NCBI GenBank assembly: GCA_029258835.1
Contig: JAPDJY010000033.1
Coordinates: forward strand, 1 to 53,500
DNA: 53,500 nucleotides
Origin: Thermoproteota archaeon
GTDB taxonomy: Archaea; Asgardarchaeota; Jordiarchaeia; Jordiarchaeales; Freyrarchaeaceae
Direction: 5' to 3'
Of this stretch, positions 1 to 11,954 are shown piece by piece. How positions within the stretch are numbered: position 1 is the stretch's first letter; every line of letters begins with the position of its first letter. The notes under the pieces are model-generated. The model had not been told where the DNA came from, searched no databases, and saw only the letters and a program-made list of their open reading frames with translations. The position numbers were made by a program, and so were the translations under genes.

Positions 1-2693
1 TTCTCTATTCCATGTCTTTTCAGTATCCAGAAATAACTGAATTCCTCTTTGCCAAGCCCTGACTTATTTTGCTCTTCTTCTGCTTTTGCTATATCCTCTG
101 CTATTTTTGTTAATTCCTCTAAGGCGGATTCTACACTTCTTTGCCTCTCTCTTAGTTGCGAAATAATCTCCTCAACTTTTTCGGCTATCGAAACTAAATA
201 GGGACTTTCCTTTCTTCTGTTTTCAATGTGTATTTTTATACTTCTATAAAGACTTGCAACTTTTACCCTTTGAGTAACTTTGTCCGCTTTAATAGTGCTA
301 GCTATATCCTCATTTATTTCATAAAGCGGAAGATTATCCGCTATATGCAAAAGCTCAACATTTTCTTTTATTAGATCTTCGGTCTTCTTAAGAATATCCC
401 TTCTTATTTTTCTTCTCTCCGCCTCTGGATTATAAGTCTGATAAATTATCTCATAAATCTGCACCAACAGTTTATATCTCTCAATATAATCTCTCAAGAA
501 TTCATCTGGGGATAAAATTTCATATATCTCCTGAATCTGCTTGAAGATTTTTGTATATTCCTTTCTCTTTTCTTCGTCAAAGAAATAATCAATTATATTC
601 TGGATTCTTTTCTCCTCATCTTCTAAATCAATCTCTTTTAAGATCTCATCAGATTTCTGCATTAGGTCTTTAAACCTCTCTTTGAGTTTTTCATAGTCGA
701 TAAGACCCGCTTCCACATCTCTTGAATAAAATGCTAAAGCCCTCTGTAGATTCTCAAAGATTCCTATATAATCCATAACTAATCCGCATGTTTTTCCTGC
801 GTAAGGCCTGTTTATCCTTGCTATTGCTTGAAGCAAAGTATGATCTTTCAATGGCTTATCGAGATACATCACATAGAGGATAGGAGCATCGTAACCGGTA
901 AGAAGTTTTTCGGTAACAATAAGAATCTTAGGAAGTTTTTCAGGCGATTTAAAGTCTTTTCTGATTCTCTTCTCTTCCTCATCAGAAATGTGGTATTTTT
1001 TGAGCAGTTCGCTATCTTTATAATTTCGTGTATATACAACTTTTGTGTAATCTGGCGGTAAATACTTGTCAATTGCCTCTTTGTAAAGTGCACATGCCTC
1101 CCTATCAACTGCAACTATGAAAGCCTTGAATCCAAGAGGTTCTATAAATTTCGTATAGTGCTCAGCTATATGTTTAGCTATGTTATCAATTCTATCCTTT
1201 GCCTTTAGCACAGCCTTTAGTTTTTGTGCTTTCTCTATGATCTTATTTATTCCTTCTATACTTGCTATTCCCTCCTCTTCAACAACCCTGAAAAATTCCT
1301 CCTCAAGCATTTCCTTATCAACATGAAGTTCCGTTTTTGCAAGCGTGTAATATAATGGGACTGTTGTCCCTTCCTCTATGGATTCATCTATTGTATACTT
1401 GTCAAGATAAGGTTCGTCCGGTGGATAACCAAAGGCTAAGAATGTGCCCCTTCCAACTTTTGTTTTGTCTACGGGTGTGCCTGTAAATCCGAAGTAAAAA
1501 GCATTAGGCAATGCTCCACGCATGTAATTACCTAAATCACCCTCCTGACTTCTATGTGCCTCATCTATCAGCAAAATAATATTTTCTCTCGTGTTTACGT
1601 GCTTTGGCATTCCTTCAAATTTGTGAATAGTTGTTATAATGAGACCTCTATAATCACTTTTAAGCAACTCTCTTAAGTGATTTTTACTTTCAGCTCTAAC
1701 AATATTTGGATAACCATAAGCCTGAAAATTCTGATAGATCTGATGCTCCAGTTCAATCCTATCAACCACAACAATGATTGTAGGGTTCTCAAGTTCTGGG
1801 ATCTTCCTTAACTCATCCGCTGAAACTATCATTGTAAGGCTTTTGTAAGCCCCTTGAGTATGCCATATTAAGCCTTTCTTTTTCTTTTCCTCTAATACCC
1901 TTCTTATGATTTTTACAATTGCCCTTCTCTGATGCTGTTTCAAGATATATTTCTGGAGTTCTTCGTCGATGGTCATAAAAACAATGTATGAGCGTAGAGT
2001 TTCAATAACTTCCCTTTTGTTAAAAAATGATTTTACAATTTTCTCAAAATTAAAACCGTTTTCAACTTTCCATCTATAAAATGTTTTACTTTCATATTTC
2101 CATGTAGGACCATAAAAAAGCCTTATTCCTTCTGAAACAGCATAAAACTGAATATATTTGAAAAGTTCAGGCAAGACGTTGTTGTATATTCTCACCTGCT
2201 CAAAAGCTTCCTCCTCAGCCTCCCAGACTGTTGGGCTTTTAAGCTCAAAATCACAGATAGGTATGCCGTTTATGAAAAGAACAATATCAAGCCTTCTTTT
2301 TTCCCTATCCTCAAACCAAAACTCCATTGTAAAGGCAAAATGATTGTTCTCAGGGTTCTCAAAGTCAATCAATTTGAAATTTCTCTCCCTTTTCTCTTTT
2401 TCAACATAAACGGTTTTTCTTCCCCTTATATACTCCAAAAATTCCTGATTACCTGTAAATGTGGAAGGTATAAGCCTTAATCTCCTTATCACATCTCCGA
2501 CATTTTCATCTGTTATTATTCCTAGATTAAGTTCTTTGAGCTTTCTTTCAAGAATTTCAAGAATAAAAGGTTCTCTAATATCAAAACCTCTCTTCTCCTG
2601 CAAGTCAGCAGGCGGAATATACTCCCAACCTATCGCCTGAAGGTAATTTATAACCCTATTCTGAACATCCCTTTTCTCAGTTATGAGTCTCAT
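1..2693 (-). CDS. hsdR: Type I restriction enzyme R subunit (3' end runs off the window)
   Basis: Manual translation from ATG at 2693: MRLITEKRDVQNRVINYLQAIGWEY... Nuclease motif DIVLFINGIPICDFELK, Walker A WHTQGAYKS, DEAH box LIDEAHRSQEG, and FGFTGTP. Lies downstream of hsdS/hsdM. Missing from the ORF track because there is no stop in the window. Confidence 0.95.
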   Translation of the reverse strand, partial: MRLITEKRDVQNRVINYLQAIGWEYIPPADLQEKRGFDIREPFILEILERKLKELNLGIITDENVGDVIRRLRLIPSTFTGNQEFLEYIRGRKTVYVEKEKRERNFKLIDFENPENNHFAFTMEFWFEDREKRRLDIVLFINGIPICDFELKSPTVWEAEEEAFEQVRIYNNVLPELFKYIQFYAVSEGIRLFYGPTWKYESKTFYRWKVENGFNFEKIVKSFFNKREVIETLRSYIVFMTIDEELQKYILKQHQRRAIVKIIRRVLEEKKKKGLIWHTQGAYKSLTMIVSADELRKIPELENPTIIVVVDRIELEHQIYQNFQAYGYPNIVRAESKNHLRELLKSDYRGLIITTIHKFEGMPKHVNTRENIILLIDEAHRSQEGDLGNYMRGALPNAFYFGFTGTPVDKTKVGRGTFLAFGYPPDEPYLDKYTIDESIEEGTTVPLYYTLAKTELHVDKEMLEEEFFRVVEEEGIASIEGINKIIEKAQKLKAVLKAKDRIDNIAKHIAEHYTKFIEPLGFKAFIVAVDREACALYKEAIDKYLPPDYTKVVYTRNYKDSELLKKYHISDEEEKRIRKDFKSPEKLPKILIVTEKLLTGYDAPILYVMYLDKPLKDHTLLQAIARINRPYAGKTCGLVMDYIGIFENLQRALAFYSRDVEAGLIDYEKLKERFKDLMQKSDEILKEIDLEDEEKRIQNIIDYFFDEEKRKEYTKIFKQIQEIYEILSPDEFLRDYIERYKLLVQIYEIIYQTYNPEAERRKIRRDILKKTEDLIKENVELLHIADNLPLYEINEDIASTIKADKVTQRVKVASLYRSIKIHIENRRKESPYLVSIAEKVEEIISQLRERQRSVESALEELTKIAEDIAKAEEEQNKSGLGKEEFSYFWILKRHGIE

Positions 2694-2699
2694 ATCTCC

Positions 2700-3056
2700 C
2701 ATCCTCTTCCTTTCAATTATTATCCTTTTTAAGTTTTTCTTTCAGAGCTGGAATGTCAACGGTTATTATGTCTCAAAAAATTATGCCTAAAATCTACACC
2801 AAACTTATCTTATCTCTTGTTCTTACAATTCCACACCATTCAACATCCTGATATTTATTCTTCAGGACACCCGAGATATTTTTTAGATGCTTCTCCAAGA
2901 ATCTCTACATTCCTTACCACAACATCCACAACCAAATCATTCTTATAAAAAATTATCGTAAAATAAATCATTTGTACATTTCAGCATCTTTTCACATATA
3001 AAGTCACATGCAATAAGCATGTCCATCACGAGCTCTTTATCTCCTTACTTAGGCAT
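2700..3056 (-). pseudogene. Degraded HepT/DUF86 HEPN toxin
   Basis: Fragments VVRNVEILGEASK, KYQDVEW and RTRDKI, interrupted by stops and frameshifts. Follows an MNT remnant. Confidence 0.75.
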
Positions 3057-3317
3057 ATTCAATTCCCTCTTTATTTCCTCTTTCACATGCTTTTATTCTT
3101 ATGGACCAACACCATCCGGGACTAAAGGGCCATTTCTTTGCCAAAAACCTCCTTAAGAAATCCAACAAGATCCGCAACATTTTTTAAATGTGGTTTACCT
3201 CTCTTGAGTTATGTAACAATATCGATGTCGCTCTCTCCCCTGCTTCACCTCTTACAAAAGAGCCAAAAAATCCCCCATTATTCTTTTCTTTTAACCCTTA
3301 ACCTTTTTTGCCATCAT
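3049..3317 (-). pseudogene. Degraded MNT (minimal nucleotidyltransferase) antitoxin
   Basis: ATG overlaps the hsdS stop (ATGA). Remnant GFFGSFVRGEA..ESDIDIV with frameshifts and stops. Confidence 0.75.
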
Positions 3318-4555
3318 ACCTCCACCTCTTTAAGCCTTATCTCTCCACTCATCAATTTATGAAGCATTGTTTTAAATAACTCCTTCAAACTCTGCTTTCT
3401 TTTCTGCTCAACCTCTATTTTCTTATCTACAACGCTTAAAATGTGAGCGGTTTGCTTTTGTTCTTCAAGAGGGGGAAGGGGGATTAACAAATTCTCTAAG
3501 GCATTACGAGGGAGTCTTTTTCTTCCAGTTGTTCCTTCCATTTTTGAAGTCAGATCACTTCTTATCCTTGGAAGCCTTAAGTATTCAAAAATATATTCTC
3601 TAATTATGTCTTCATCCTTAGGATGAAATGCAAAAACTTCAGTAGTTGCATACCCAAACTCCATAGGCAAATTTGTTAAAAGAGCTTGCTTTCCATTTTC
3701 AAATGAAGGAGTTATTTTAGCTACAATGATGTCATCTTTGAAAACAAAAGTCCCACTTGATATTTCTGAATATTTTTTCATCAACCACCCTGCATATTTA
3801 CCCGAATCTGGTATTAGCTCCATAGGAATAAAGGGAATCTCATCATTTTCTTTTATTCTTAAGTTTCTCGGTTTTCTACTAAATTCGACAACCCTCTCTA
3901 ATCTCACCACTTTCCAGCTCTTCGGGATTAATCCTATTTCCGTTTCCTTCTGCTCCTCGCCACAAAGCCCTTCTGTGAATAGCTTTTGCATGAGCGATTT
4001 TTTGAGGTTTTTAGCCTGCTCTATGATTCTGTCCTGAATTTCAATGGCTTTTTGAATTGTGTCAAGAACCTTGGCAATTTTGCGTTGCTCGGGAAGAGGG
4101 GGAAGGGGGATTTTCTTCTCTTTTAATAATGGAAAATGTCTGTTGTAACCTCGGCTTGGTATATTCAAAGTAAGAAAAGCAAAGAATAAAAATTTAGGAT
4201 CAAATAACTCTTTATTTGGGATAAGCACTTTCACGCCGTCAGCTCCAACTATGAAGGGAAAATCTACAAACTTAAAGATCCTTGTGTGGTCTCCAAATAT
4301 TATAACAGGTAGAGGGCCCCGGTAAGCTTTTTCATCATCATCACAAAATCCAGCGATGTAATTCTGACTTTGATCTATCACAGGGTATTTTCCAAATGGT
4401 TTATACTCTTGTTGTTTTATCTTTCCAACTCTAATTTTTTTCTTTAAAATAGCTCCTTCAAACCTCACCACTTCCCAATCCTTAGGAATCAAGCCGACTT
4501 CTGTTTGTTTGAAGTTGTTTTCTCCCTCAAATTTTTCAAGTGTTTTCTGTGCCAT
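3314..4555 (-). CDS. hsdS: Type I R-M specificity subunit
   Basis: Two-TRD architecture with repeated conserved blocks (TEVGLIPKDWEVV / TEIGLIPKSWKVV; IPLPPLPEQRKI / IPLPPLEEQKQ) and a C-terminal LMSGEIR. Confidence 0.96.
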   Translation of the reverse strand: MAQKTLEKFEGENNFKQTEVGLIPKDWEVVRFEGAILKKKIRVGKIKQQEYKPFGKYPVIDQSQNYIAGFCDDDEKAYRGPLPVIIFGDHTRIFKFVDFPFIVGADGVKVLIPNKELFDPKFLFFAFLTLNIPSRGYNRHFPLLKEKKIPLPPLPEQRKIAKVLDTIQKAIEIQDRIIEQAKNLKKSLMQKLFTEGLCGEEQKETEIGLIPKSWKVVRLERVVEFSRKPRNLRIKENDEIPFIPMELIPDSGKYAGWLMKKYSEISSGTFVFKDDIIVAKITPSFENGKQALLTNLPMEFGYATTEVFAFHPKDEDIIREYIFEYLRLPRIRSDLTSKMEGTTGRKRLPRNALENLLIPLPPLEEQKQTAHILSVVDKKIEVEQKRKQSLKELFKTMLHKLMSGEIRLKEVEV

Positions 4556-4561
4556 CTTTTC

Positions 4562-5017
4562 TCACCATGGATGTTCTACATAACTTCTCAATTGATTTGC
4601 AGCAAAATAGCACTTATCTGCATGCTTTAAAGCAAGTTCTGCCTCCTCTTTTTCAAACAATTTTTCCGGACCTACTCCAATTTTCTCCAAGCCGTATTTA
4701 GCCACCGTGTAAAAGCTAAGCCAGAATTTTGAATAAAGATAAAGCTTAGGAAAATCTAAATGCTTTAGCTTCTCAGGAATGTCTTCCAAAATTCCCTCAA
4801 ATTCTTCTTCCTTAAACTCGTGCTTTTTTGGATATTGTTTTTGAAGAAGAATGAAAACAGCCTTTACTGATAATTCTATACACTCTTGTGATGCAGATAT
4901 ACTCTCAGGATAATTATAATTTTTTAGATGATGCTTCGCCTCATCTAATTTATTCCACGCTCTTTTAAGGAAACTTCCAGCTATTTCCAAGTTTTTTTCT
5001 TTCATAATCTCCACCAT
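4562..5017 (-). CDS. HEPN domain protein
   Basis: FLKRAWNKLDEAKHHL..NYPESISASQECIELSVKA matches the HEPN (SACS/archaeal) pattern. Confidence 0.8.
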   Translation of the reverse strand: MVEIMKEKNLEIAGSFLKRAWNKLDEAKHHLKNYNYPESISASQECIELSVKAVFILLQKQYPKKHEFKEEEFEGILEDIPEKLKHLDFPKLYLYSKFWLSFYTVAKYGLEKIGVGPEKLFEKEEAELALKHADKCYFAANQLRSYVEHPW

Positions 5018-5304
5018 TCTTGTTCCTCAAGTTTGTCTTTAACAATTTTCAGCCTCGCTAATTTTTCTTTCTTAGAAACTGTGGGAAAAAGTCTGTTTGC
5101 TTCTATATCTTTTTCTACCTCTTCTATTATTGTTTGACACTCTATAACAGTTAAAATACCGTGCTGTATCGCAGATCTTATTTGCCCTATTATGTGATTA
5201 ACTGTAATGCCTCTTTTTCTTCCACCAATAAACTCCTCCAAAAGGCCTTTGATCCTTTTTTGTGTTATTTCTTTTGCAAATTTTCTTTCTTCCATTTTCA
5301 CCAC
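5002..5304 (-). CDS. Hypothetical helical protein inside the hsd operon
   Basis: 100-aa ORF overlapping both the hsdM stop and the HEPN start, with codon style matching its neighbours. Confidence 0.65.
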   Translation of the reverse strand: MVKMEERKFAKEITQKRIKGLLEEFIGGRKRGITVNHIIGQIRSAIQHGILTVIECQTIIEEVEKDIEANRLFPTVSKKEKLARLKIVKDKLEEQEWWRL

Positions 5305-6821
5305 TCAAAACCTATTTTTTCCATTATCTTCTTTAACTCCTTATCAACCTCTTTCCTTTCCTCTTCAACCTTTGCAAGCTCTACCAATATGTCCTCAACT
5401 GGCTGTATTTTTTCTTTTTCATCAACAGAAACATAACGAGATGGACTCAAGTTATAATCGTTCTTTCTTGCCTCCTCTATGGTTATTATCTTTGAAAATC
5501 CTTCGATTTCCTTCCAACCAAAGTATGCGTCAAGAATCTTTTTTATGTTCTCATCTGTGAGATAATTTTTCGGTCTTCCCTTTGCAAACTCCTTTGATGC
5601 GTTTATAAGCAAAATCTCACCTTTATGCTTCTTTGCCTTATTTATTACGATTATATTTCCCTGAGATGGAGTATTATAAAATAAATTGTCTGTAAGCAGA
5701 ATAACAACCTCAATTAAGTCATTTTCCACAAATTTTTTCCTTATCTCCTTTTCTCTATCTGTTCCAGAGCTCCCGCTTCCCCTTGTTATAACTCCTGTAT
5801 CAATAACAACAACAAGCTTCCCGTTATCTTTCAGAGATGCAAACATATGTTGAATCCATCCCCAATCTGAGCTTTGATTTGACGGCGGTATACCAAAACT
5901 AAATCTGTTGTAGGGGTCATTTTCAAAAACATCTTGAGGAAATTTCTGATTCCACATAGGATTTGCAATGACCTTATCAAATTGTTTGACTCTGCTATTT
6001 TCCACAAACTTTGGATTTCTTATTGTATCTCCAACCCTTATATCTGCATCCATGTCATGAATAAAAGCGTTCATCTTTGCCATTGCATAGGTGAACGGGT
6101 TTATTTCCTGGCCATACAGTTTCAGAGGTCTCTTCACCTCTTTTTTCTTCTCTTTCAAAACAAGCTGGGATTTTATAAGTAAGCCACCAGAACCGCATGC
6201 AGGGTCATAGATTTCCTCTCCTTCCTCGGGGTCAAGCAAGTAAGCCATTAATAATCCAACTTCTCTTGGTGTGTAAAACTCGCCTGCAGATTGTCCTGAA
6301 CCTTCAGCAAATTTCCTTAAAAGGTATTCGTATGCTCTGCCCAAAATATCAGGTTCAACATCATTTAAGCCAAGCCTGTATTTGCTGAGAATCTGCATTA
6401 ATCTGTGGATGTGCTCATCGCTTATTATCCTTTGTCCTGCCTGAGTTGCGTTAAAATCAACTATATCAATAACTCCCTGTAATTTTGGGTTTTCTCTGGC
6501 TATTTTCCTCAAGGCTTCTGTTAGTTTCTCGCCTACATCTGTTGTAATTCTTCTAACATTTTTCCATAGGCATTCTTCTGGAATATAAAACCTTATTAAT
6601 CTTCTATCTTTTGCTGCGAGTTTCCTTGCTACTTCTTCGTTTCCAAATTCCTCAGCAAGTTTCTTTATCTCATCTTCATAGACATCGCAGAGTCTTTTAT
6701 AAAATATCAGCGGGATTATGAAGTCCTTATACTTCGGTGCATCTATAGGTCCCCTAATACTGCATGCTGCCTCCCAAAGCCAGTTTTCCAGTGTTGAAAC
6801 ATCAAGCTTTCCAAACCACAT
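5298..6821 (-). CDS. hsdM: Type I R-M methyltransferase subunit
   Basis: LENWLWEAACSIRG, GEFYTPREV, YDPACGSGG (motif I) and ANPMW (motif IV variant). Confidence 0.97.
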   Translation of the reverse strand: MWFGKLDVSTLENWLWEAACSIRGPIDAPKYKDFIIPLIFYKRLCDVYEDEIKKLAEEFGNEEVARKLAAKDRRLIRFYIPEECLWKNVRRITTDVGEKLTEALRKIARENPKLQGVIDIVDFNATQAGQRIISDEHIHRLMQILSKYRLGLNDVEPDILGRAYEYLLRKFAEGSGQSAGEFYTPREVGLLMAYLLDPEEGEEIYDPACGSGGLLIKSQLVLKEKKKEVKRPLKLYGQEINPFTYAMAKMNAFIHDMDADIRVGDTIRNPKFVENSRVKQFDKVIANPMWNQKFPQDVFENDPYNRFSFGIPPSNQSSDWGWIQHMFASLKDNGKLVVVIDTGVITRGSGSSGTDREKEIRKKFVENDLIEVVILLTDNLFYNTPSQGNIIVINKAKKHKGEILLINASKEFAKGRPKNYLTDENIKKILDAYFGWKEIEGFSKIITIEEARKNDYNLSPSRYVSVDEKEKIQPVEDILVELAKVEEERKEVDKELKKIMEKIGFEW

Positions 6822-6870
6822 AGTTACCCTCCCTCTTTTTTATATTTTTAAAGGTAACGGCGGGCATTTC

Positions 6871-6960
6871 ACTTAACATTTTACGGGTATGCGAAGCTCT
6901 GAACATAGCGAAGGATTTGGGTGAACATCCTAAGTGCGAATCACATACTTACTGTTAGAC
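6871..6960. other. attC-like imperfect palindrome
   Basis: ACTTAAC (RYYYAAC) at 6871-6877 and GTTAGAC (GTTRRRY) at 6954-6960. Inner arms GGGTATGCGA / TCACATACTT and AGGAT / ATCCT. Length 90 bp. Confidence 0.5.
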
Positions 6961-7049
6961 GTGGGCAGTAGCCTCGAAGTGAGCGTAAGTGAACGGAAAG
7001 TTGGGCGATGTAGTAACATCATGTCTTTTTCTGCCTTATTTTTTATTGA

Positions 7050-7625
7050 TCAAATTCAAGTAGATATATCTTTGTTTTCTCGGATAAACTTTAATTCAAA
7101 GATCAGATTCTAACTAATGCAAAACACGGTGATAGAAAAATATGAAGAACAAGAGTTCCATTGTTTAAAAAATGTTTTTTGCTACACAATTAACTTAATC
7201 AGGAGTTGTAAGATGAAGTTGTTAACTTCTTTATTTAAGTATAAAAATTTTTTAAGTTAATAGAGTTTATTGGTTTAGAAGAGTTGAAGAATTGAGAGAA
7301 GTTTATAGACAAAGAAGAAAATTCCTCATCTAATTTCAGGAACTCAACATGAAGATTTGAGGAAAATTAGGATTTGATTAAAAAGTCAAGGAGATTGATG
7401 AAAGTTGAAAAACTTTAAATGAAGCTAAAATCAAGGAGATTGTTTTTTTAGCGTGATTAAGGAATATGAACTCATTTATTAACGGAGATGAACATACTTT
7501 AGAAGAAAAAGAAAGAAAAATATGATGGTAAAAATTGTTACGAGTGAAGAGGAAATTATTGAATTAGCGAATTGAGAATGGTTGTTAACAGATAGAAAGA
7601 AGGTAAATGGTTAATGAAGAAGCGA
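7050..7625 (+). pseudogene. Eroded tyrosine recombinase/integrase, C-terminal part
   Basis: Across frameshifts it reads FHCLK..FFATQLT*SGV..DEVVNFFI, resembling the HxLR...LGH box, then RVEELREVY. Many stops. Confidence 0.5.
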
Positions 7626-7627
7626 GC

Positions 7628-8389
7628 TTAATCTAACTTTAATGATAGTGAACCATTTTTTATAATTTTTTCCACTTTTATTATTCCAAGTTTTGTGAGT
7701 TTTATTCCATTTTTGTTAATATGGATAAACTTTTTCTTTTCAAGCCTTTGTAAAGTTGTGTTGAGAAGTTGTGGATACCTCGGTCTTATAGAAGATATAA
7801 TCTCATCTTTCTTAACTCTCTTTGGATAGTTGGTATATAAAAATAACAGAAGTTCATCGGAAAATGGTAAATTTTCTTTTAAAATTAAGATACTTCCATC
7901 CTCGAATTTCTCGACAAATGGTACTTTTCTCTCTATAAATTTATCTAAAACTTCTTTCATCTTGTGTTCGTCAATTTTTTCCATAAAGAGTAAGAGTTGT
8001 GAAAATATCCAATCAGAAGCTTCAATAACGTATTTAGCATCTATAAAATTTGGATCTATCTCCTTAAAATGAGCTACTTTCTTTTTGCTCCTTAAGGTAT
8101 AAATCGACTTTGCAACAATAGGTACCGCTAACGTTAATATTTCGTCTTTTGCATTCTTTTTTTGTAGATTAACTAAGATATTAAACATTTTATCAAACTT
8201 AAATTTTCTAAAATCCATGTTTCGAATGTTGTAGTACATCAAAATAGATTTCAGCACTATTTCAACAAATCTTCCACCAGAGATTATTGTTTTTTCAAAG
8301 TCCGATAAAATAAAGGAGTTCTTAATTTGATTGTACTCTTTCATTAATTCATCTATAAGTGGTATCTTTTGGAGTTTCATCGTGCTCAC
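7628..8389 (-). CDS. HEPN-like (Abi_C-like) protein with C-terminal winged helix
   Basis: Helical N-terminus GGRFVEIVLK, an R-x-H motif in IYTLRSKKKVAH followed by DPNFIDA, and C-terminal LQRLEKKKFI..GIKLTKLGIIKVE (wHTH). Confidence 0.6.
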   Translation of the reverse strand: MSTMKLQKIPLIDELMKEYNQIKNSFILSDFEKTIISGGRFVEIVLKSILMYYNIRNMDFRKFKFDKMFNILVNLQKKNAKDEILTLAVPIVAKSIYTLRSKKKVAHFKEIDPNFIDAKYVIEASDWIFSQLLLFMEKIDEHKMKEVLDKFIERKVPFVEKFEDGSILILKENLPFSDELLLFLYTNYPKRVKKDEIISSIRPRYPQLLNTTLQRLEKKKFIHINKNGIKLTKLGIIKVEKIIKNGSLSLKLD

Positions 8390-8958
8390 TTAAATTTGAT
8401 TTTCTCAATCTGTTCTTCTAGTAATTTCTTCGCTTCATCAATGCCTTGTGGTAAAATATCTACGAATAAATATTCACCTTCTTTCCAAATTTTGATGTAT
8501 CTTTTATATTTTTGGTTGGACAAATCTCTCTTTAATCGGGAAACATCGACCCAGTCCCTTATCTTTTTGGATAATTCCTTTAATTGAATAGGAGTTTTTT
8601 TATAAATTGTCTTAAGTGGTAATAAAAGTATTAACGAAGCTTTTAACTGCTTTCCTTTTCCTTCTAACTCTAGGTAATTAATATCTATATCATCTTCGCT
8701 AAAATTATAAACATACTGTAAATCTTCAAGAGAGAAACCTAGCAATTTTTCTATTTTTTCCTTTAGTTCCGACGCATCTTTCTTAGTGTAATGAATCTTT
8801 TCTTCAACAATTAAACGAGAATATAATTTTTCAAAGTTTTCTTTAACAAATTTTTCATTTCCTTTTACCTCAATTTCAACTTCACCAATTTTTATTTTTA
8901 TAGAGCATACAGAGTTTTCATTGTTTTCTATCATTTTTTTCACCATATTTGCTTTCAA
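8386..8958 (-). CDS. Hypothetical protein, possible C-terminal wHTH
   Basis: 190-aa ORF. N-terminal IKIKIGEVEIEVKGNEKFVKE motif and C-terminal ILPQGIDEAKKLL. Overlaps both neighbours. Confidence 0.7.
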   Translation of the reverse strand: MKANMVKKMIENNENSVCSIKIKIGEVEIEVKGNEKFVKENFEKLYSRLIVEEKIHYTKKDASELKEKIEKLLGFSLEDLQYVYNFSEDDIDINYLELEGKGKQLKASLILLLPLKTIYKKTPIQLKELSKKIRDWVDVSRLKRDLSNQKYKRYIKIWKEGEYLFVDILPQGIDEAKKLLEEQIEKIKFK

Positions 8959-9358
8959 GTTCTTTCAGAATTTTTTCGATTTTTGTTGGAATCACACGGT
9001 AAGTTCCTTTTTTTTCACGTATCGAAAGTTTTTCATCTTTAATTTCTTTTAGCCTAGCCGAAACTTGCATTTTATCTACCATAAAGAAATATGAGAGCTC
9101 TTGTGCAGAGAGCGATGGATTTATAGATTTATCCAGTTTGTTAGCAATAAACCTTGCTACTAATGTTAATTTGATCTTGTCTTTTAAAGAAAATTTCTCT
9201 CCAAGCTCTGTAAGGTCAATCTCGCCGGTTTTCGTGATTTTACAATACTTCATAAGGCGCTTTACATACTGCGCTATTTTTTTCTCATCAAAAGCTTTTT
9301 CATCGATTATCCATTTATTCTTTAGTTCTTCAAGATTCTCCATTCTCATAATCACCAA
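8918..9358 (-). CDS. Hypothetical wHTH protein
   Basis: LSAQELSYFFMVDKMQVSARLKEIKDEKLSIREKKGTYRV is a helix-turn-helix plus wing pattern. Confidence 0.7.
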   Translation of the reverse strand: MVIMRMENLEELKNKWIIDEKAFDEKKIAQYVKRLMKYCKITKTGEIDLTELGEKFSLKDKIKLTLVARFIANKLDKSINPSLSAQELSYFFMVDKMQVSARLKEIKDEKLSIREKKGTYRVIPTKIEKILKELESKYGEKNDRKQ

Positions 9359-9468
9359 CCTGTATTTTGTATATTGTATAATGTAAATTTAACCTTTATA
9401 AATTTTTCTGGTAGCTTATATTATGATAGGTAATTTACTAAAAATAAATTTGTATAAGATTTGTGTTA

Positions 9469-10008
9469 TTATGTAAATTGTTTTTTGATTTCTTCTTCTT
9501 GGAATATGCTTTCCATTATTTCATTTACTAGTGCTTCGCTGTGAAATCGGAGCATGTAATCTGGTGGTATGAGTTCAACATCTACAACACTTAGTGGGTT
9601 TATGCTGCCAATGTAAACTACTTCTCCGTCTATGATTACACTTTTAAAGTGGAGGCGACGTACTTCTATGACTTCCATTCCTGCTTCCTTAAGTTTTTCG
9701 ATACATTTTACATGATTTTGGTCTTTAACTTGATCAGCTGGTCTAACGGCGACTATGAATCTTACTCCTTTTTCAATGGATTGTTTAACTTCACGCCAGC
9801 TGAGAAAATTTTTAACTCTGGTGTAAGTAAGATACGGCGAGAAGATTAGGACATATTCTTGGGAATTATTTATGTCTTCACTTAAAGAAGCATCAAAGTG
9901 CTTTGAGTCGAGGAACTTAGTAGTAGCCTTAAATACTTGTTCTTTTAACCTCTTCAAAATGGGGCCTTTTTTAAACCTATCTTCGATGATTTTTTTAAAT
10001 AGTGACAT
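9469..10008 (-). CDS. Phospholipase D-like (single HKD) nuclease-family protein
   Basis: IFSPYL motif and HFKSVIIDGEVVYIGSIN (HxK x4 D x6 GSxN). Confidence 0.85.
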   Translation of the reverse strand: MSLFKKIIEDRFKKGPILKRLKEQVFKATTKFLDSKHFDASLSEDINNSQEYVLIFSPYLTYTRVKNFLSWREVKQSIEKGVRFIVAVRPADQVKDQNHVKCIEKLKEAGMEVIEVRRLHFKSVIIDGEVVYIGSINPLSVVDVELIPPDYMLRFHSEALVNEIMESIFQEEEIKKQFT

Positions 10009-10138
10009 AAATAATACCCCACGATTTTTTTACAAAATTTTTCGTTGTTGATTATTTATTTTCCTAACTTTGATTTATAAGTATTTTCGTATTTTAAAAA
10101 TTTTTTCTTAAGCTGTCAGCCTAAAAGATTTTCCTCGA

Positions 10139-10190
10139 TTTTAATAAACTTGTAACTTACCTCCCTTACACTGTTACAAGTTTATTAAAA
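10139..10190. repeat. Perfect 18-bp inverted repeat with 16-bp spacer
   Basis: TTTTAATAAACTTGTAAC (10139-10156) and GTTACAAGTTTATTAAAA (10173-10190). Confidence 0.9.
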
Positions 10191-10226
10191 AAGCTAATAG
10201 ATAAGATTAAGCTAGGCTTGGAAGTC

Positions 10227-10242
10227 TACTAGTATACTAGTA
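10227..10242. promoter_or_regulatory. 16-bp perfect palindrome (TACTAGTA x2), possible operator
   Basis: TACTAGTATACTAGTA in the intergenic region upstream of the PLD gene. Regulatory role is inferred. Confidence 0.4.
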
Positions 10243-10623
10243 TGTATTGGAACGCTCAAAGTTTAATTTCAACACTTTCTTTCATGATTACTAAAATTTT
10301 ACTTTTAATGACATTAAGCTTCCTTTCACTTCACTAATTGAAGCTAAGTTTTTAGTTTAAACCCTTCTAGAGTTGCGCTTTTTTCATGGAGTTAAAGCGT
10401 TCAAAAAATTCGAGGAACCGCTTAAGCTTGCTCATTTCCGTTTCAGAGAGAAGAAATCTAAAATTTAATCAATGAGTTACTGGTGTCCTGCTTATTCTGC
10501 GAAAGTTCCGTTAACCTACTTTTCAGGTGATGAATTATTTGTTGTTCGAGATTGGTTTTTCTGTGGTTGCCTTTTAGGAAGTTTTGCCTGTTGCTGTTAA
10601 CCCCTTTACTTTCTAAAGGGAGT

Positions 10624-11460
10624 TTAGGGCTGAGTGTCTTTTTCATCTTTAGTTTTTTCTAGTCTTTTCTTGAGGGTTTTCAGTATTTTTTCTTCTCCTT
10701 CTTTTTCCATGAGTTCCCATATTAGCTGGAATGCTTTGATCCTGTTTTGCGCCGAGTTTTTTGCGGTTTTGAATGCTTCTGGTGTTAGGGGTCCTACTAC
10801 TACTGTTTTGCTTTCTTCGTTGTATCTTATGTAGATGGAGCTGTGTGGGTCGGAGAAGGGGGATACGGTTGGGTCTACTGCCGAGACGGCGTCGATTATG
10901 AAGACTGGTAGTATTGAGTGGTCCCAGTACTGTTTTTCTCTTGCCTTGTAGCCTAGTAGGGTTAGTAGGAGTCTTGCCCCTGTTAGTTCTCCGTGGCCTA
11001 GGATGACGTATCCTGGGGCTTCGTGCATTGGGTTGGCGAGGCCTGCCTCGAAGAGGTAGAGGAGGGGTTCGCCTTCGCATGTTACCGTGGCCAGCAGTAT
11101 GTCCGGGAAGTCTGTCATTCCTAGTTCTCTGAGCTTTGAGTACCTGGACATGAGTTCCACTTCGGTTTCTCTGACTATGGCTTCAACTTCTCTCTTGTTC
11201 GGGTTTCTCGCGGCTCCCTCCTTGCTTTTGACGTGCTCCATTAGGTTCGTGTACTTGTTTCTGATGAGCTCGTATGCTCCTTTAACCAGCGCGGAGACTC
11301 CTGCGCCGGAGACCACTGCGAGCCCGTACTCTCGTCCGTTATCCTCGTACGTTACCGGGTAGACTTTCCTCTCCTCTCCGTAGACGCCGTAGCCGCTCAC
11401 CCTGGTGTCGGCTGCAACCACAACACCCTTGCCTAGAACCATGGCGAGAACAAGAGTCAC
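10624..11460 (-). CDS. Proteasome beta-subunit-fold Ntn hydrolase (divergent, stand-alone)
   Basis: GTG at 11460 gives (M)TLVLAMVLGKGVVVAADTRVS..RKV, with Thr1, ADTR and downstream K typical of beta-subunit/HslV folds. Later SGAG motif and DAVSAVDPTVS. Confidence 0.75.
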   Translation of the reverse strand: MTLVLAMVLGKGVVVAADTRVSGYGVYGEERKVYPVTYEDNGREYGLAVVSGAGVSALVKGAYELIRNKYTNLMEHVKSKEGAARNPNKREVEAIVRETEVELMSRYSKLRELGMTDFPDILLATVTCEGEPLLYLFEAGLANPMHEAPGYVILGHGELTGARLLLTLLGYKAREKQYWDHSILPVFIIDAVSAVDPTVSPFSDPHSSIYIRYNEESKTVVVGPLTPEAFKTAKNSAQNRIKAFQLIWELMEKEGEEKILKTLKKRLEKTKDEKDTQP

Positions 11461-11954
11461 CCGCACACCCCAACGGCAACCTGAAATGGAGTTGAAACAC
11501 GGGAGGAAACCAGACGTGTGCCTACTACAATTTGCCTCTTAAAAAATAAATTTCTTACTTTTGAGGGAAAATTTTAAGAGAATTAAATCAACATCGAGTA
11601 GGGGAGGGTGAGGGTGTCGGCTTACCGGAGAGGGTGGCCGTTGAGCGGGGATCGCTGGGCTGAGTAGAAAACATCGGGCCGGTGGGTTGGTGTGGTGGCG
11701 GGCTGCGGCGATTGGTTTTGACCCGTGTTGCTGGGCGGCTAGGGTGTGGTTGGGTTGTGGCCGTCTCGCCGTTCATTGCGCTGTGTTGGGTGCGTGTGGG
11801 TTATTGTTGAGGCTTCTTGGTGGTGTTTCTGGTGGGCTGGCGGTGTTGTTGGGCGTTCCTTTTTCGTCGGGGGGAGGAAAAAGGGTTGGGTTGTGGGCTT
11901 CTTGTTCTGGTGGGTGCTCTCTGTTTTGGTGGGGTGGTGTTGTGGTGTGTGGTG

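What the first reader, a model, noticed from the sequence alone, without database searches (positions are those of the whole stretch)
7628..10008. AT-rich PLD / wHTH / unknown / HEPN-wHTH cluster: candidate uncharacterised antiviral system
Seen: four co-oriented intact ORFs, three of them overlapping, in visibly more AT-rich DNA than the flanks. They lie between an integrase remnant and a perfect inverted repeat, next to a type I R-M operon. The last gene has an R-x-H motif (RSKKKVAH) plus a wHTH; two small partners look wHTH-like; the first gene is a single-HKD PLD. Established: HEPN RNases and PLD nucleases are common defence effectors. Inference: this is a multi-subunit DNA-sensing abortive-infection module that I cannot match to a named system.
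Basis: partly seen in the sequence, partly recalled or inferred. Interest (0 to 1): 0.8.

Follow-up and report, generated by a model that had tools for sequence, protein, structure and literature searches.

The report
HEPN–winged-helix operon beside unrelated PLD
Three of the four genes form a conserved, unnamed operon of mostly archaeal genomes, encoding a predicted HEPN RNase fused to a DNA-binding domain plus two small DNA-binding partners, probably a toxin–antitoxin-like or antiviral module; the PLD nuclease gene is only a neighbour.

Summary
There are four intact minus-strand ORFs. The DNA is AT-rich (GC 0.28–0.35, against 0.51 for the rest of the window). There is a decayed tyrosine-integrase remnant, a perfect 18-nt inverted repeat and a type I R-M operon. 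One gene is a single-HKD PLD, and the 253-aa protein carries RSKKKVAH.

The four genes are not one system. The three genes at 7628–9358 recur as a tight operon in about 90 loci. These come mostly from archaea (Bathyarchaeia, Archaeoglobi, Thermoplasmata, Pacearchaeota, Asgard) and from one bacterial MAG. The PLD gene is in none of those loci. It also lies outside the segment shared with the closest relatives.

The 253-aa protein (D) models as a HEPN four-helix bundle. R100 ends helix 3 and H107 sits in the following loop, which is the canonical catalytic position. Both residues are invariant. A β-hairpin and a wHTH follow. Both small partners carry related wHTH modules; in other genomes they are fused to each other or to D.

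No Pfam, NCBIfam, PADLOC or PHROG model covers D. Its HEPN domain defines about 400–700 clusters (50% identity) in 1.8 billion proteins.

The best reading (about 0.55) is a HEPN-RNase toxin–antitoxin-like or abortive-infection module with wHTH regulators. This is a new variant of a known kind. First-stage readers of this scan noted the same module on two other genomes.

The parts
7628..8389 (-). Gene D: HEPN domain (about residues 5-140), then a β-hairpin linker (about 157-170), then a wHTH (about 170-250). The likely start is ATG 8380.
   Evidence: AlphaFold model has pLDDT 86.9. The N-terminal domain best matches HEPN structures: 2hsb Z 12.4, rmsd 3.3 Å, 122 residues; 1o3u Z 11.1; Csm6 6tug Z 10.3; 1wol Z 9.9. 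The C-terminal domain matches MarR/PadR/AF1382 wHTH at Z 10-11. R100, K102, K103, H107, D117, E160 and L184 are invariant in 62 sequences.
8386..8958 (-). Gene C (family X): a low-confidence β-hairpin plus helix N-terminus, then helix, β-hairpin, wHTH and C-terminal helix.
   Evidence: Model has pLDDT 80.7, and above 90 for residues 70-188. The wHTH matches AF1382 (2qvo) at Z 8.1. The C-terminal half is related to the C-terminal half of D (hhalign E 7e-5). It is conserved upstream of D.
8918..9358 (-). Gene B: small wHTH protein. The likely start is ATG 9349, preceded by a GGTGA ribosome-binding site.
   Evidence: Family alignment A4. A homologue in L005 matches Pfam AbiEi_4 at 1.6e-5 and PADLOC Csa3 and AbiEi wHTH models. 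hhalign to the wHTH of D gives 95% probability, E 3.5e-8. B forms the N-terminus of the 456-aa fused proteins (98.5%).
9393..9408 (-). BRE/TATA-like promoter of the B-C-D operon (AAAAATTTATAAAGG).
   Evidence: It is conserved in position and sequence upstream of B in the window, L002 and L013. Homology to those relatives begins here and stops just before the PLD stop codon. Promoter function is inferred from the archaeal consensus.
7175..7625 (+). Decayed 3' third of a tyrosine integrase gene, convergent with D.
   Evidence: tblastn with the 444-aa integrase of L002/L012 covers residues 297-443 in two frames. That protein matches Pfam Phage_integrase at 1.3e-14. DNA homology to L002 ends near window 7120.
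9469..10008 (-). Single-HKD PLD nuclease-like gene. It is a neighbour, not part of the conserved module.
   Evidence: Pfam PLDc_2 and PLDc. PADLOC matches only the PLD region of MkoC (6e-15) and DrmC (5e-7). It is absent from all related loci. Its relatives in 6 other genomes of 400 are never next to D.
10139..10190 (.). Perfect 18-nt inverted repeat with a 16-nt spacer, about 130 nt upstream of the PLD start.
   Evidence: unique in the genome. RNA fold is -18.5 kcal/mol, z -3.2. Its function is unknown and it is not conserved with the module.

Best explanation
The locus holds two independent things.

(1) Window 7628-9408 (minus strand) is a self-contained operon with its own promoter. Gene B encodes a small wHTH protein. 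Gene C encodes a β-hairpin/helix N-terminus plus a wHTH. Gene D encodes a HEPN domain, a β-hairpin and a wHTH.

Most likely this is a toxin-antitoxin-like or abortive-infection conflict module. D would be a metal-independent HEPN endoribonuclease using the invariant R100...H107 dyad (inferred). The wHTH partners would bind D and/or the operon DNA, keeping D silent and auto-regulating expression (inferred). Loss or displacement of the partners, for example on invasion by foreign DNA or loss of the element, would release RNA cleavage and stop growth (inferred).

All three proteins share one related β-hairpin-wHTH module. A plausible control mechanism is therefore mixed wHTH oligomers that compete with the D-D pairing an HEPN active site normally needs (speculative).

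In this genome the module arrived with a tyrosine integrase that has since decayed. It sits in a low-GC defence island.

(2) The PLD gene is a separate small Nuc-like HKD phosphodiesterase that happens to lie next door.
For: HEPN fold:
- The model is confident (pLDDT 86.9).
- Every structural match to residues 5-140(156) is a HEPN-superfamily member: 2hsb Z 12.4, 1o3u Z 11.1, Csm6 Z 10.3, sacsin HEPN Z 10.1, 1wol Z 9.9, 1ufb Z 9.7. Foldseek also lists 1wol, Csm6 and AbiV.

Catalytic motif:
- R100 closes helix 3 (H80-101) and H107 lies in the loop to helix 4. An extra helix is inserted between helices 2 and 3.
- Anantharaman et al. 2013 (PMC3710099) describe exactly this placement for Rx4-6H, with a polar residue after the R. 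Here that residue is S or N.
- The dyad is invariant in 62 homologues.
- It is kept as Rx5-6H in the full-length cluster representatives examined.

Operon conservation:
- In 56 of 66 loci with enough upstream DNA, a partner of family B, C or X, or a fused B-X-X protein, directly abuts D. The junctions mostly overlap or leave under 20 nt.
- At least 5 of the other 10 loci have partners one ORF away.
- All full-length hits in an independent scan of 400 genomes also have partners.

Gene fusions:
- B-X-X proteins of 456 aa occur in 13 loci.
- One representative is a D-C fusion (P0083).

Shared module: hhalign links the C-terminal half of D to B (E 3.5e-8), to X (7e-5) and to C (6e-5).

Distribution and context:
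- The distribution is patchy: about 11 of 400 genomes in the phylum and 0 of 10 others in the order.
- Long-flank loci show type I or III R-M, GmrSD-HNH, an OLD nuclease, integrases, a serine recombinase and a terminase.
- The gene order, small DNA-binding proteins first and the nuclease last, matches type II TA operons (established knowledge).
Against: - No activity, toxicity or binding has been measured.
- The Z scores (10-12) lie in a range where helical bundles can match without homology, as the tool's own note says. No sequence model of any HEPN family detects D.
- Neither partner resembles a known antitoxin of HEPN toxins; there is no MNT domain.
- D carries its own wHTH, so it could act on DNA-bound targets or be mainly a regulator.
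- Many neighbours are housekeeping genes (ETF, HycI, eIF5A, CDC48), and no formal enrichment test against a background was done.
- The family is absent from IMG/VR viral contigs and PLSDB plasmids. That gives no support for carriage on those elements, but it does not speak against defence.
Confidence: 0.55

Rival explanations
1. The three genes are the regulatory and maintenance cassette of a small integrative element (integrase plus three genes, about 3.3 kb). The wHTH proteins would act as repressor or excision factors. D would be an addiction toxin that stabilises the element rather than defending the host.
For: In the closest relatives L002 and L012, an intact 444-aa tyrosine integrase lies convergent to D, and the window keeps its remnant. 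The segment shared with relatives is exactly integrase plus D, C, B and the promoter, about window 7120-9445. Its GC of 0.28 is distinct from both flanks. An earlier scan note (e1-1394505) proposed att-like repeats 3265 bp apart, and I find them at L002 8979-8994 and 12244-12259.
Against: That integrase accompanies D only in the closest relatives. Only 4 of 120 neighbour proteins are tyrosine integrases of any kind. The 'att' repeat is a BRE/TATA-like motif lying about 25-40 nt before the next gene's start, so it may simply be two promoters. No relatives were found in viral or plasmid collections.
Confidence: 0.2
2. B, C and D form a non-toxic DNA-binding regulatory complex. The HEPN domain would serve as a ligand- or partner-binding sensor, as in non-catalytic HEPN domains, and the operon would control neighbouring genes.
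For: All three proteins carry wHTH domains. HEPN domains without nuclease activity exist, such as NTase-fused HEPN and MtlR (PMC3710099).
Against: Non-catalytic HEPN domains typically lose the Rx4-6H motif (PMC3710099). Here R and H are invariant across a family with 20-40% identity. The neighbouring genes are not conserved, so there is no common regulatory target.
Confidence: 0.15
3. One reading: PLD, wHTH, unknown and HEPN-wHTH act together as one four-subunit DNA-sensing abortive-infection system.
For: The four genes are co-oriented and adjacent in low-GC DNA. HKD DNases and HEPN RNases both occur as auxiliary effectors near BREX-related systems (PMC12839542).
Against: The PLD is absent from 83 of 83 related loci, including those 79-86% identical. 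Homology to relatives stops between the operon promoter and the PLD stop codon. A 110-nt spacer with a conserved promoter separates them. GC is 0.35 against 0.28. PLD relatives in the phylum are never next to D.
Confidence: 0.05

Closest known systems
HEPN-MNT (HepT/MntA) type II/VII toxin-antitoxin modules
   Same: Both have a small HEPN-domain protein with an Rx4-6H motif as the last gene of a tightly coupled operon. Both are patchily distributed, mobile and frequent in archaea and in defence islands.
   Different: There is no minimal nucleotidyltransferase partner; the partners are wHTH proteins. The HEPN domain is fused to a β-hairpin-wHTH module. No sequence model of PF05168 or any other HEPN family matches it.
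AF_0298 / TM0613 / ST0689 stand-alone HEPN proteins (PDB 2hsb, 1o3u, 1wol)
   Same: These are the best structural matches to D residues 5-140 (Z 12.4, 11.1 and 9.9).
   Different: Sequence identity is 10-12%. According to PMC3710099, AF0298-type proteins usually lack the H of the motif, whereas D keeps both R and H. They have no wHTH fusion.
Type IX retron effectors (HEPN nuclease plus winged-helix protein; bioRxiv 10.64898/2026.07.14.738597, abstract only)
   Same: A HEPN nuclease is paired with a separate winged-helix protein as a defence effector set.
   Different: No reverse transcriptase or ncRNA gene accompanies the module. PADLOC retron models match only the wHTH of D, and weakly (E 2e-4).
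AbiE (AbiEi wHTH antitoxin / AbiEii toxin) and tripartite TA operons such as omega-epsilon-zeta
   Same: A B-family homologue matches the AbiEi_4 wHTH model (1.6e-5). In both, upstream DNA-binding protein(s) precede a downstream toxin, and a three-gene layout is known for TA systems (established knowledge).
   Different: The toxin is HEPN-like, not an AbiEii nucleotidyltransferase or a zeta kinase. The similarity is limited to the generic wHTH.
Nuc/NucT-type single-HKD PLD nucleases, and the PLD domains of Mokosh MkoC and DISARM DrmC (for the neighbouring gene only)
   Same: It has a full HKD motif, a size of 179 aa, and matches to PLDc_2, MkoC (6e-15) and DrmC (5e-7).
   Different: There is no helicase domain or DISARM partner. 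Only the PLD region of MkoC (model positions 979-1103 of 1136) is matched. It is not linked to the HEPN operon elsewhere.

Membership tests
HEPN superfamily (structural) | Four-helix up-and-down bundle, often with an insert between helices 2 and 3 | tested here: met
   The model has helices 12-27, 31-52, an inserted helix 65-73, then 80-101 and 113-137. The top matches for this domain are all HEPN structures: 2hsb Z 12.4, rmsd 3.3 Å, 122 of 126 residues. Caveat: Z below 13 for a helical bundle is not decisive on its own.
HEPN superfamily (structural) | [quoted passage not shown] | tested here: met
   R100 is the penultimate residue of helix 80-101 and H107 is in the loop at 102-112. R-[S/N] and H are invariant in 62 sequences and kept in the cluster representatives. 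The criterion is taken from PMC3710099.
HEPN superfamily (structural) | Metal-independent endoribonuclease activity | not testable with these tools
   Needs biochemistry.
Pfam HEPN-clan families (PF05168 and others) | Sequence match above the family cut-off | tested here: not met
   No HEPN-clan family appears even at E up to 1. There is no PDB sequence match. hhalign to the window's own PF05168 protein gives 0.3% probability. The Atlas lists Hypoth_Ymh and DUF4145 clusters only at scores of 0.79 and 0.76, which are leads only.
HEPN-MNT toxin-antitoxin | Adjacent minimal nucleotidyltransferase antitoxin | tested here: not met
   The partners B and C have no NTase match in Pfam, NCBIfam or PADLOC. 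The model of C is a wHTH.
AbiE system | AbiEi wHTH antitoxin together with an AbiEii (DUF1814) nucleotidyltransferase toxin | tested here: not met
   Only a generic AbiEi_4 wHTH hit in one B homologue. There is no AbiEii-like gene in the operon.
Retron type IX | Reverse transcriptase and ncRNA next to the HEPN and WH effectors | tested here: not met
   No other ORF of at least 40 aa fits between 7628 and 10008. The upstream partners in related loci belong only to families B, C and X.
PLD superfamily (gene at 9469-10008) | HxKx4Dx6GSxN motif | tested here: met
   H120, K122, D127, G134, S135 and N137 are read from the translation. PLDc scores 2e-6 and PLDc_2 scores 1.2e-9, both above their cut-offs.
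Mokosh / DISARM (gene at 9469-10008) | RNA-helicase (MkoA or the MkoC N-terminus) or DrmA/DrmB partners | tested here: not met
   Only the PLD part of MkoC and DrmC is matched. The neighbours are the wHTH operon and an unassigned 280-aa protein.

The most novel reading that the evidence does not exclude
An undescribed defence or toxin-antitoxin system, dominant in archaea and present in Asgard, DPANN, Bathyarchaeia and Halobacteriota MAGs and a few bacteria. A DNA-binding HEPN RNase would be controlled by paralogous wHTH proteins through mixed oligomers of a shared β-hairpin-wHTH module. Foreign or altered DNA, sensed by the wHTH array, would license RNA cleavage.
Probability: 0.25. Interest if true: 0.7.

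Novelty: new variant of a known kind. Interest (0 to 1): 0.5.

Why it matters
HEPN RNases are the killing component of many immune and toxin-antitoxin systems, including Cas13, Csm6, HepT, PrrC and AbiV. This family adds a fixed HEPN-wHTH architecture with its own set of wHTH partners. Its HEPN domain defines about 392 clusters at E ≤ 1e-10 and 702 at E ≤ 1e-3 among 1.8 billion representatives. No current Pfam, NCBIfam, PADLOC or PHROG model covers it, so it is missed by defence and TA annotation of archaeal genomes. The way the partners are built (split, duplicated, or fused to each other or to D) offers a tractable case for studying how DNA-binding modules gate an RNase. For this window specifically, the result corrects the picture. 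The island holds a three-gene module plus a separate PLD gene, not a four-subunit machine.

Tried and rejected
Contexts came from the search for related loci and the genome search instead.
- Complex prediction of C (alignment A3) with D (alignment A2) returned 'no answer' (score 0.00). This is no evidence either way.
- Sequence searches of D found nothing beyond generic wHTH hits. These were against Pfam, NCBIfam, PADLOC and PHROGs, PDB sequences and the window's own PF05168 HEPN protein.
- Foldseek alone gave no hit at E ≤ 1e-3 for D or C. The assignments rest on VIA-align Z scores plus motif placement.
- A direct scan of the genome with Pfam Phage_integrase missed the remnant in the window. 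It was found only by tblastn with the relatives' integrase.
- No relatives of D turned up in IMG/VR viral contigs or PLSDB plasmids.
- My first iterative HMM searches for B and C drifted into each other and into the wHTH of D. I re-clustered with coverage limits.
- The ~16-25-nt direct repeats flanking the module plus integrase in L002 were considered as att sites. I set them aside as uncertain because they look like BRE/TATA promoter motifs.
- Ten of 120 neighbour proteins matched PADLOC 'mad8'. I did not interpret this, because it may reflect a generic ATPase domain.
- One search of earlier findings failed because it had too many words.
Full report
**The observation.** The region holds four intact ORFs on the minus strand:
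- A, 9469-10008, 179 aa.
- B, 8918-9358, 146 aa.
- C, 8386-8958, 190 aa.
- D, 7628-8389, 253 aa.

B and C overlap. The stop codon of C and the start of D overlap as GTGA, or are 5 nt apart if D starts at ATG 8380.

GC is 0.28 for D, C, B and the sequence downstream of D. It is 0.35 for A, 0.34-0.38 for the type I R-M genes at 3-6821, and 0.51 for the rest of the window.

The perfect 18-nt inverted repeat at 10139-10156/10173-10190 is real and unique in the genome.

The 'integrase remnant' is also real. Window 7175-7625 (+ strand) matches residues 297-443 of a 444-aa protein that lies convergent to D in the relatives L002 and L012. The match is split over two frames (tblastn E 7.5e-16). That protein is a tyrosine integrase (Pfam Phage_integrase 1.3e-14).

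**The four proteins.**
- A is a single-HKD PLD with a complete HxKx4Dx6GSxN motif (PLDc_2 1.2e-9). PADLOC matches only the PLD part of Mokosh MkoC and of DISARM DrmC.
- B, C and D match no Pfam, NCBIfam, PADLOC or PHROG family, apart from weak generic wHTH hits.

**Relatives and gene neighbourhood.** A word-indexed protein search found only seven relatives of D. Pattern scans with their alignment gave far more: 10 loci in GTDB genomes and 73 in metagenomes. The genome loci come from Bathyarchaeia, Hecatellales, Archaeoglobaceae, Thermoplasmatales, Pacearchaeota, Promethearchaeota and one Bdellovibrionales MAG.

I called ORFs in all loci and clustered them. The genes upstream of D on the same strand fall into three small families:
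- Family B: about 140 aa, a wHTH. The window's B belongs here.
- Family X: about 190 aa. The window's C belongs here.
- Family C: about 149 aa. The window has no member, although its N-terminal β-hairpin resembles residues 17-53 of the window's C.

In 13 loci a single 456-aa protein replaces the partners. hhalign shows it to be B followed by two X modules (98.5%, 96.9% and 94.5% probability).

Architectures seen include B-C-D, C-X-D, B-X-D (the window), BXX-D, B-C-C-D and C-D. Of 66 non-redundant loci with at least 700 nt upstream of D, 56 have such a partner directly abutting D. The junctions mostly overlap or leave under 20 nt. At least five of the other ten have partners one ORF away.

An independent profile scan of 400 genomes of the same phylum found about 11 with a full-length D, and none in the 10 other genomes of the window's order. 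Each full-length D again came with partners from families B, C or X.

**The PLD is not part of the module.** No relative of A is present in any of the 83 loci. That includes L002, L012 and L013, whose B, C and D are 71-87% identical to the window's.

DNA alignment with L002 and L013 shows that homology runs from about window 7120, inside the integrase remnant, to about 9445. It ends just before the stop codon of A at 9469.

A conserved BRE/TATA-like motif (AAAAATTTATAAAGG, window 9393-9408) and a GGTGA ribosome-binding site precede B. B-C-D therefore has its own promoter.

Relatives of A occur in 6 other genomes of 400. They are small stand-alone genes or about 1200-aa fusions, and are never next to D.

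In L002 the position of A is taken by Hsp20, Hsp20 and CDC48 genes.

**Structure of D.** With the 62-sequence alignment A2, AlphaFold gave pLDDT 86.9. Residues 5-140 form a helical bundle: helices 12-27 and 31-52, a short inserted helix 65-73, then helices 80-101 and 113-137.

All structural matches to this domain are HEPN-superfamily members:

| Structure | Z | rmsd (Å) | Aligned residues |
|---|---|---|---|
| 2hsb | 12.4 | 3.3 | 122 of 126 |
| TM0613 (1o3u) | 11.1 | 2.9 | 116 |
| Csm6 HEPN domain (6tug) | 10.3 | 3.6 | 133 |
| Sacsin HEPN (3o10) | 10.1 | 4.4 | 124 |
| 1wol | 9.9 | 3.6 | 112 |
| 1ufb | 9.7 | 4.4 | 120 |

Such Z values alone are not decisive for helical bundles. The motif placement adds independent support. 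Anantharaman et al. (PMC3710099) state three things about HEPN domains:
- The residue after R is polar.
- Inserts between helices 2 and 3 are typical.

In D, R100 ends helix 3, S101 (N in most relatives) follows, and H107 is in the loop. R100, K102, K103 and H107 are invariant in 62 sequences.

A profile of the HEPN domain alone (A8) found 702 cluster representatives at E ≤ 1e-3 and 392 at E ≤ 1e-10 among 1.84 billion. Nearly all are 245-285 aa, so the HEPN-wHTH architecture is fixed. All full-length ones examined keep R-[S/N]-x(4-5)-H at the same place.

Residues 170-253 are a MarR/PadR/AF1382-type wHTH (Z 10-11; profile hit to ScaR at 3.6e-4). A conserved β-hairpin (PxxExFEDG, with invariant E160) links the two domains.

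**Structure of the partners.** The model of C has pLDDT 80.7, and above 90 for residues 70-188. It shows a low-confidence β-hairpin plus helix, followed by helix, β-hairpin, wHTH and a C-terminal helix. Its best match is the same AF1382 fold (Z 8.1).

hhalign relates the C-terminal half of D to family B (E 3.5e-8), family X (7e-5) and family C (6e-5). All components therefore share one β-hairpin-wHTH module, and D is that module with a HEPN domain in front.

One representative, P0083 (344 aa), is D fused to a family-C module. Another, P0088, has wHTH modules in front of the HEPN domain.

**Context.** The neighbours beyond the module are not conserved. Among 120 flanking proteins no Pfam family occurs more than four times. 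They include:
- Integrases, a serine recombinase and terminases.
- DNA methyltransferases, type III Res and GmrSD-HNH.
- An OLD-family nuclease immediately downstream in the Asgard locus L011.
- HerA- and STAND-type ATPases.
- Housekeeping genes: ETF, HycI, eIF5A and CDC48.

No relatives were found in IMG/VR viral contigs or PLSDB plasmids.

This is the pattern of a small, horizontally mobile accessory cassette that often lands in defence islands or integrated elements. I did not compute a formal enrichment.

**Interpretation.** Five observations fit a toxin-antitoxin-like or abortive-infection module best:
- An invariant HEPN catalytic dyad.
- The nuclease gene last in a translationally coupled operon.
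- Small DNA-binding proteins upstream.
- Patchy phyletic spread.
- Defence or mobile-element neighbourhoods.

In that reading D is the RNase and B/C restrain or regulate it (confidence about 0.55). How the restraint works is not shown. The shared wHTH module and the fusions suggest hetero-oligomers. The one complex prediction I could run gave no verdict and says nothing either way.

The alternatives are:
- A maintenance and regulation cassette of a small integrase-borne element (0.2). The integrase link exists only in the closest relatives, and the proposed att repeats look like promoters.
- A non-catalytic regulatory complex (0.15). The invariant R/H dyad argues against it.
- The original four-gene model with the PLD (0.05).

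**Known or new.** Anantharaman et al. 2013, the archaeal 'dark matter' surveys and the 2026 BREX survey describe no such HEPN-wHTH family with wHTH partners. My search covered only open-access text.

First-stage readers of this scan noted the same module on two other genomes. One note describes the L011-type locus, a triple-wHTH protein plus HEPN-wHTH plus OLD (e1-5498756, e1-5498766). The other describes an L002-type locus, an integrase plus three ORFs next to cdc48 (e1-1394505). I checked these layouts here.

I classify the module as a new variant of a known kind: a HEPN-toxin operon with a new fused architecture and a new partner type.

Noticed in passing
window 4562-5304 (minus strand): A canonical HEPN protein (PF05168, 1.5e-12) and an overlapping 100-aa ORF with no family are embedded between hsdM and hsdS of the type I R-M operon. 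This is a second, unrelated HEPN gene 2.6 kb from D.
   Followed up: partly
window 10624-11466 (minus strand): A 280-aa ORF at GC 0.51 has an N-terminal sequence that looks like a proteasome beta or HslV protein, but it has no Pfam or NCBIfam match. It marks the edge of the low-GC island.
   Followed up: no
L011:10818-12803 (Promethearchaeota MAG): An OLD-family nuclease (AAA_15 plus OLD-like TOPRIM) lies immediately downstream of the fused BXX-D pair, on the same strand. It may be a third component in that lineage.
   Followed up: partly
P0083 and P0088 (cluster representatives): Two rare fusions. P0083 (344 aa) is HEPN-wHTH followed by a family-C wHTH module. P0088 (360 aa) has wHTH modules in front of the HEPN domain. 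These Rosetta-stone links join D to its partners.
   Followed up: partly
L091, L093-L095 (genomes G113, G184, G227, G290): Partner order is not fixed. Examples are X-B-C-D, B-C-X-D, and B-D-C with a partner downstream of D.
   Followed up: partly
L002:8979-8994 and L002:12244-12259: Two CCAAAA(G/A)ATTTATAAA repeats 3265 bp apart bracket B-C-D plus the integrase. They could be att sites or simply two BRE/TATA promoters.
   Followed up: partly
Alignment A5 (120 flanking proteins of related loci): Ten of 120 neighbours match the PADLOC model mad8 (best E 7.8e-22), and 3-4 match mad2 and mad3. I did not resolve whether this reflects real MADS-like systems or a generic ATPase/MTase domain.
   Followed up: no
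window 1-10600 versus 10600-53500: The composition is layered: GC 0.28 for integrase remnant plus B-C-D, 0.34-0.38 for type I R-M and the PLD, and 0.51 for the rest. This suggests at least two separate acquisitions in the island.
   Followed up: partly
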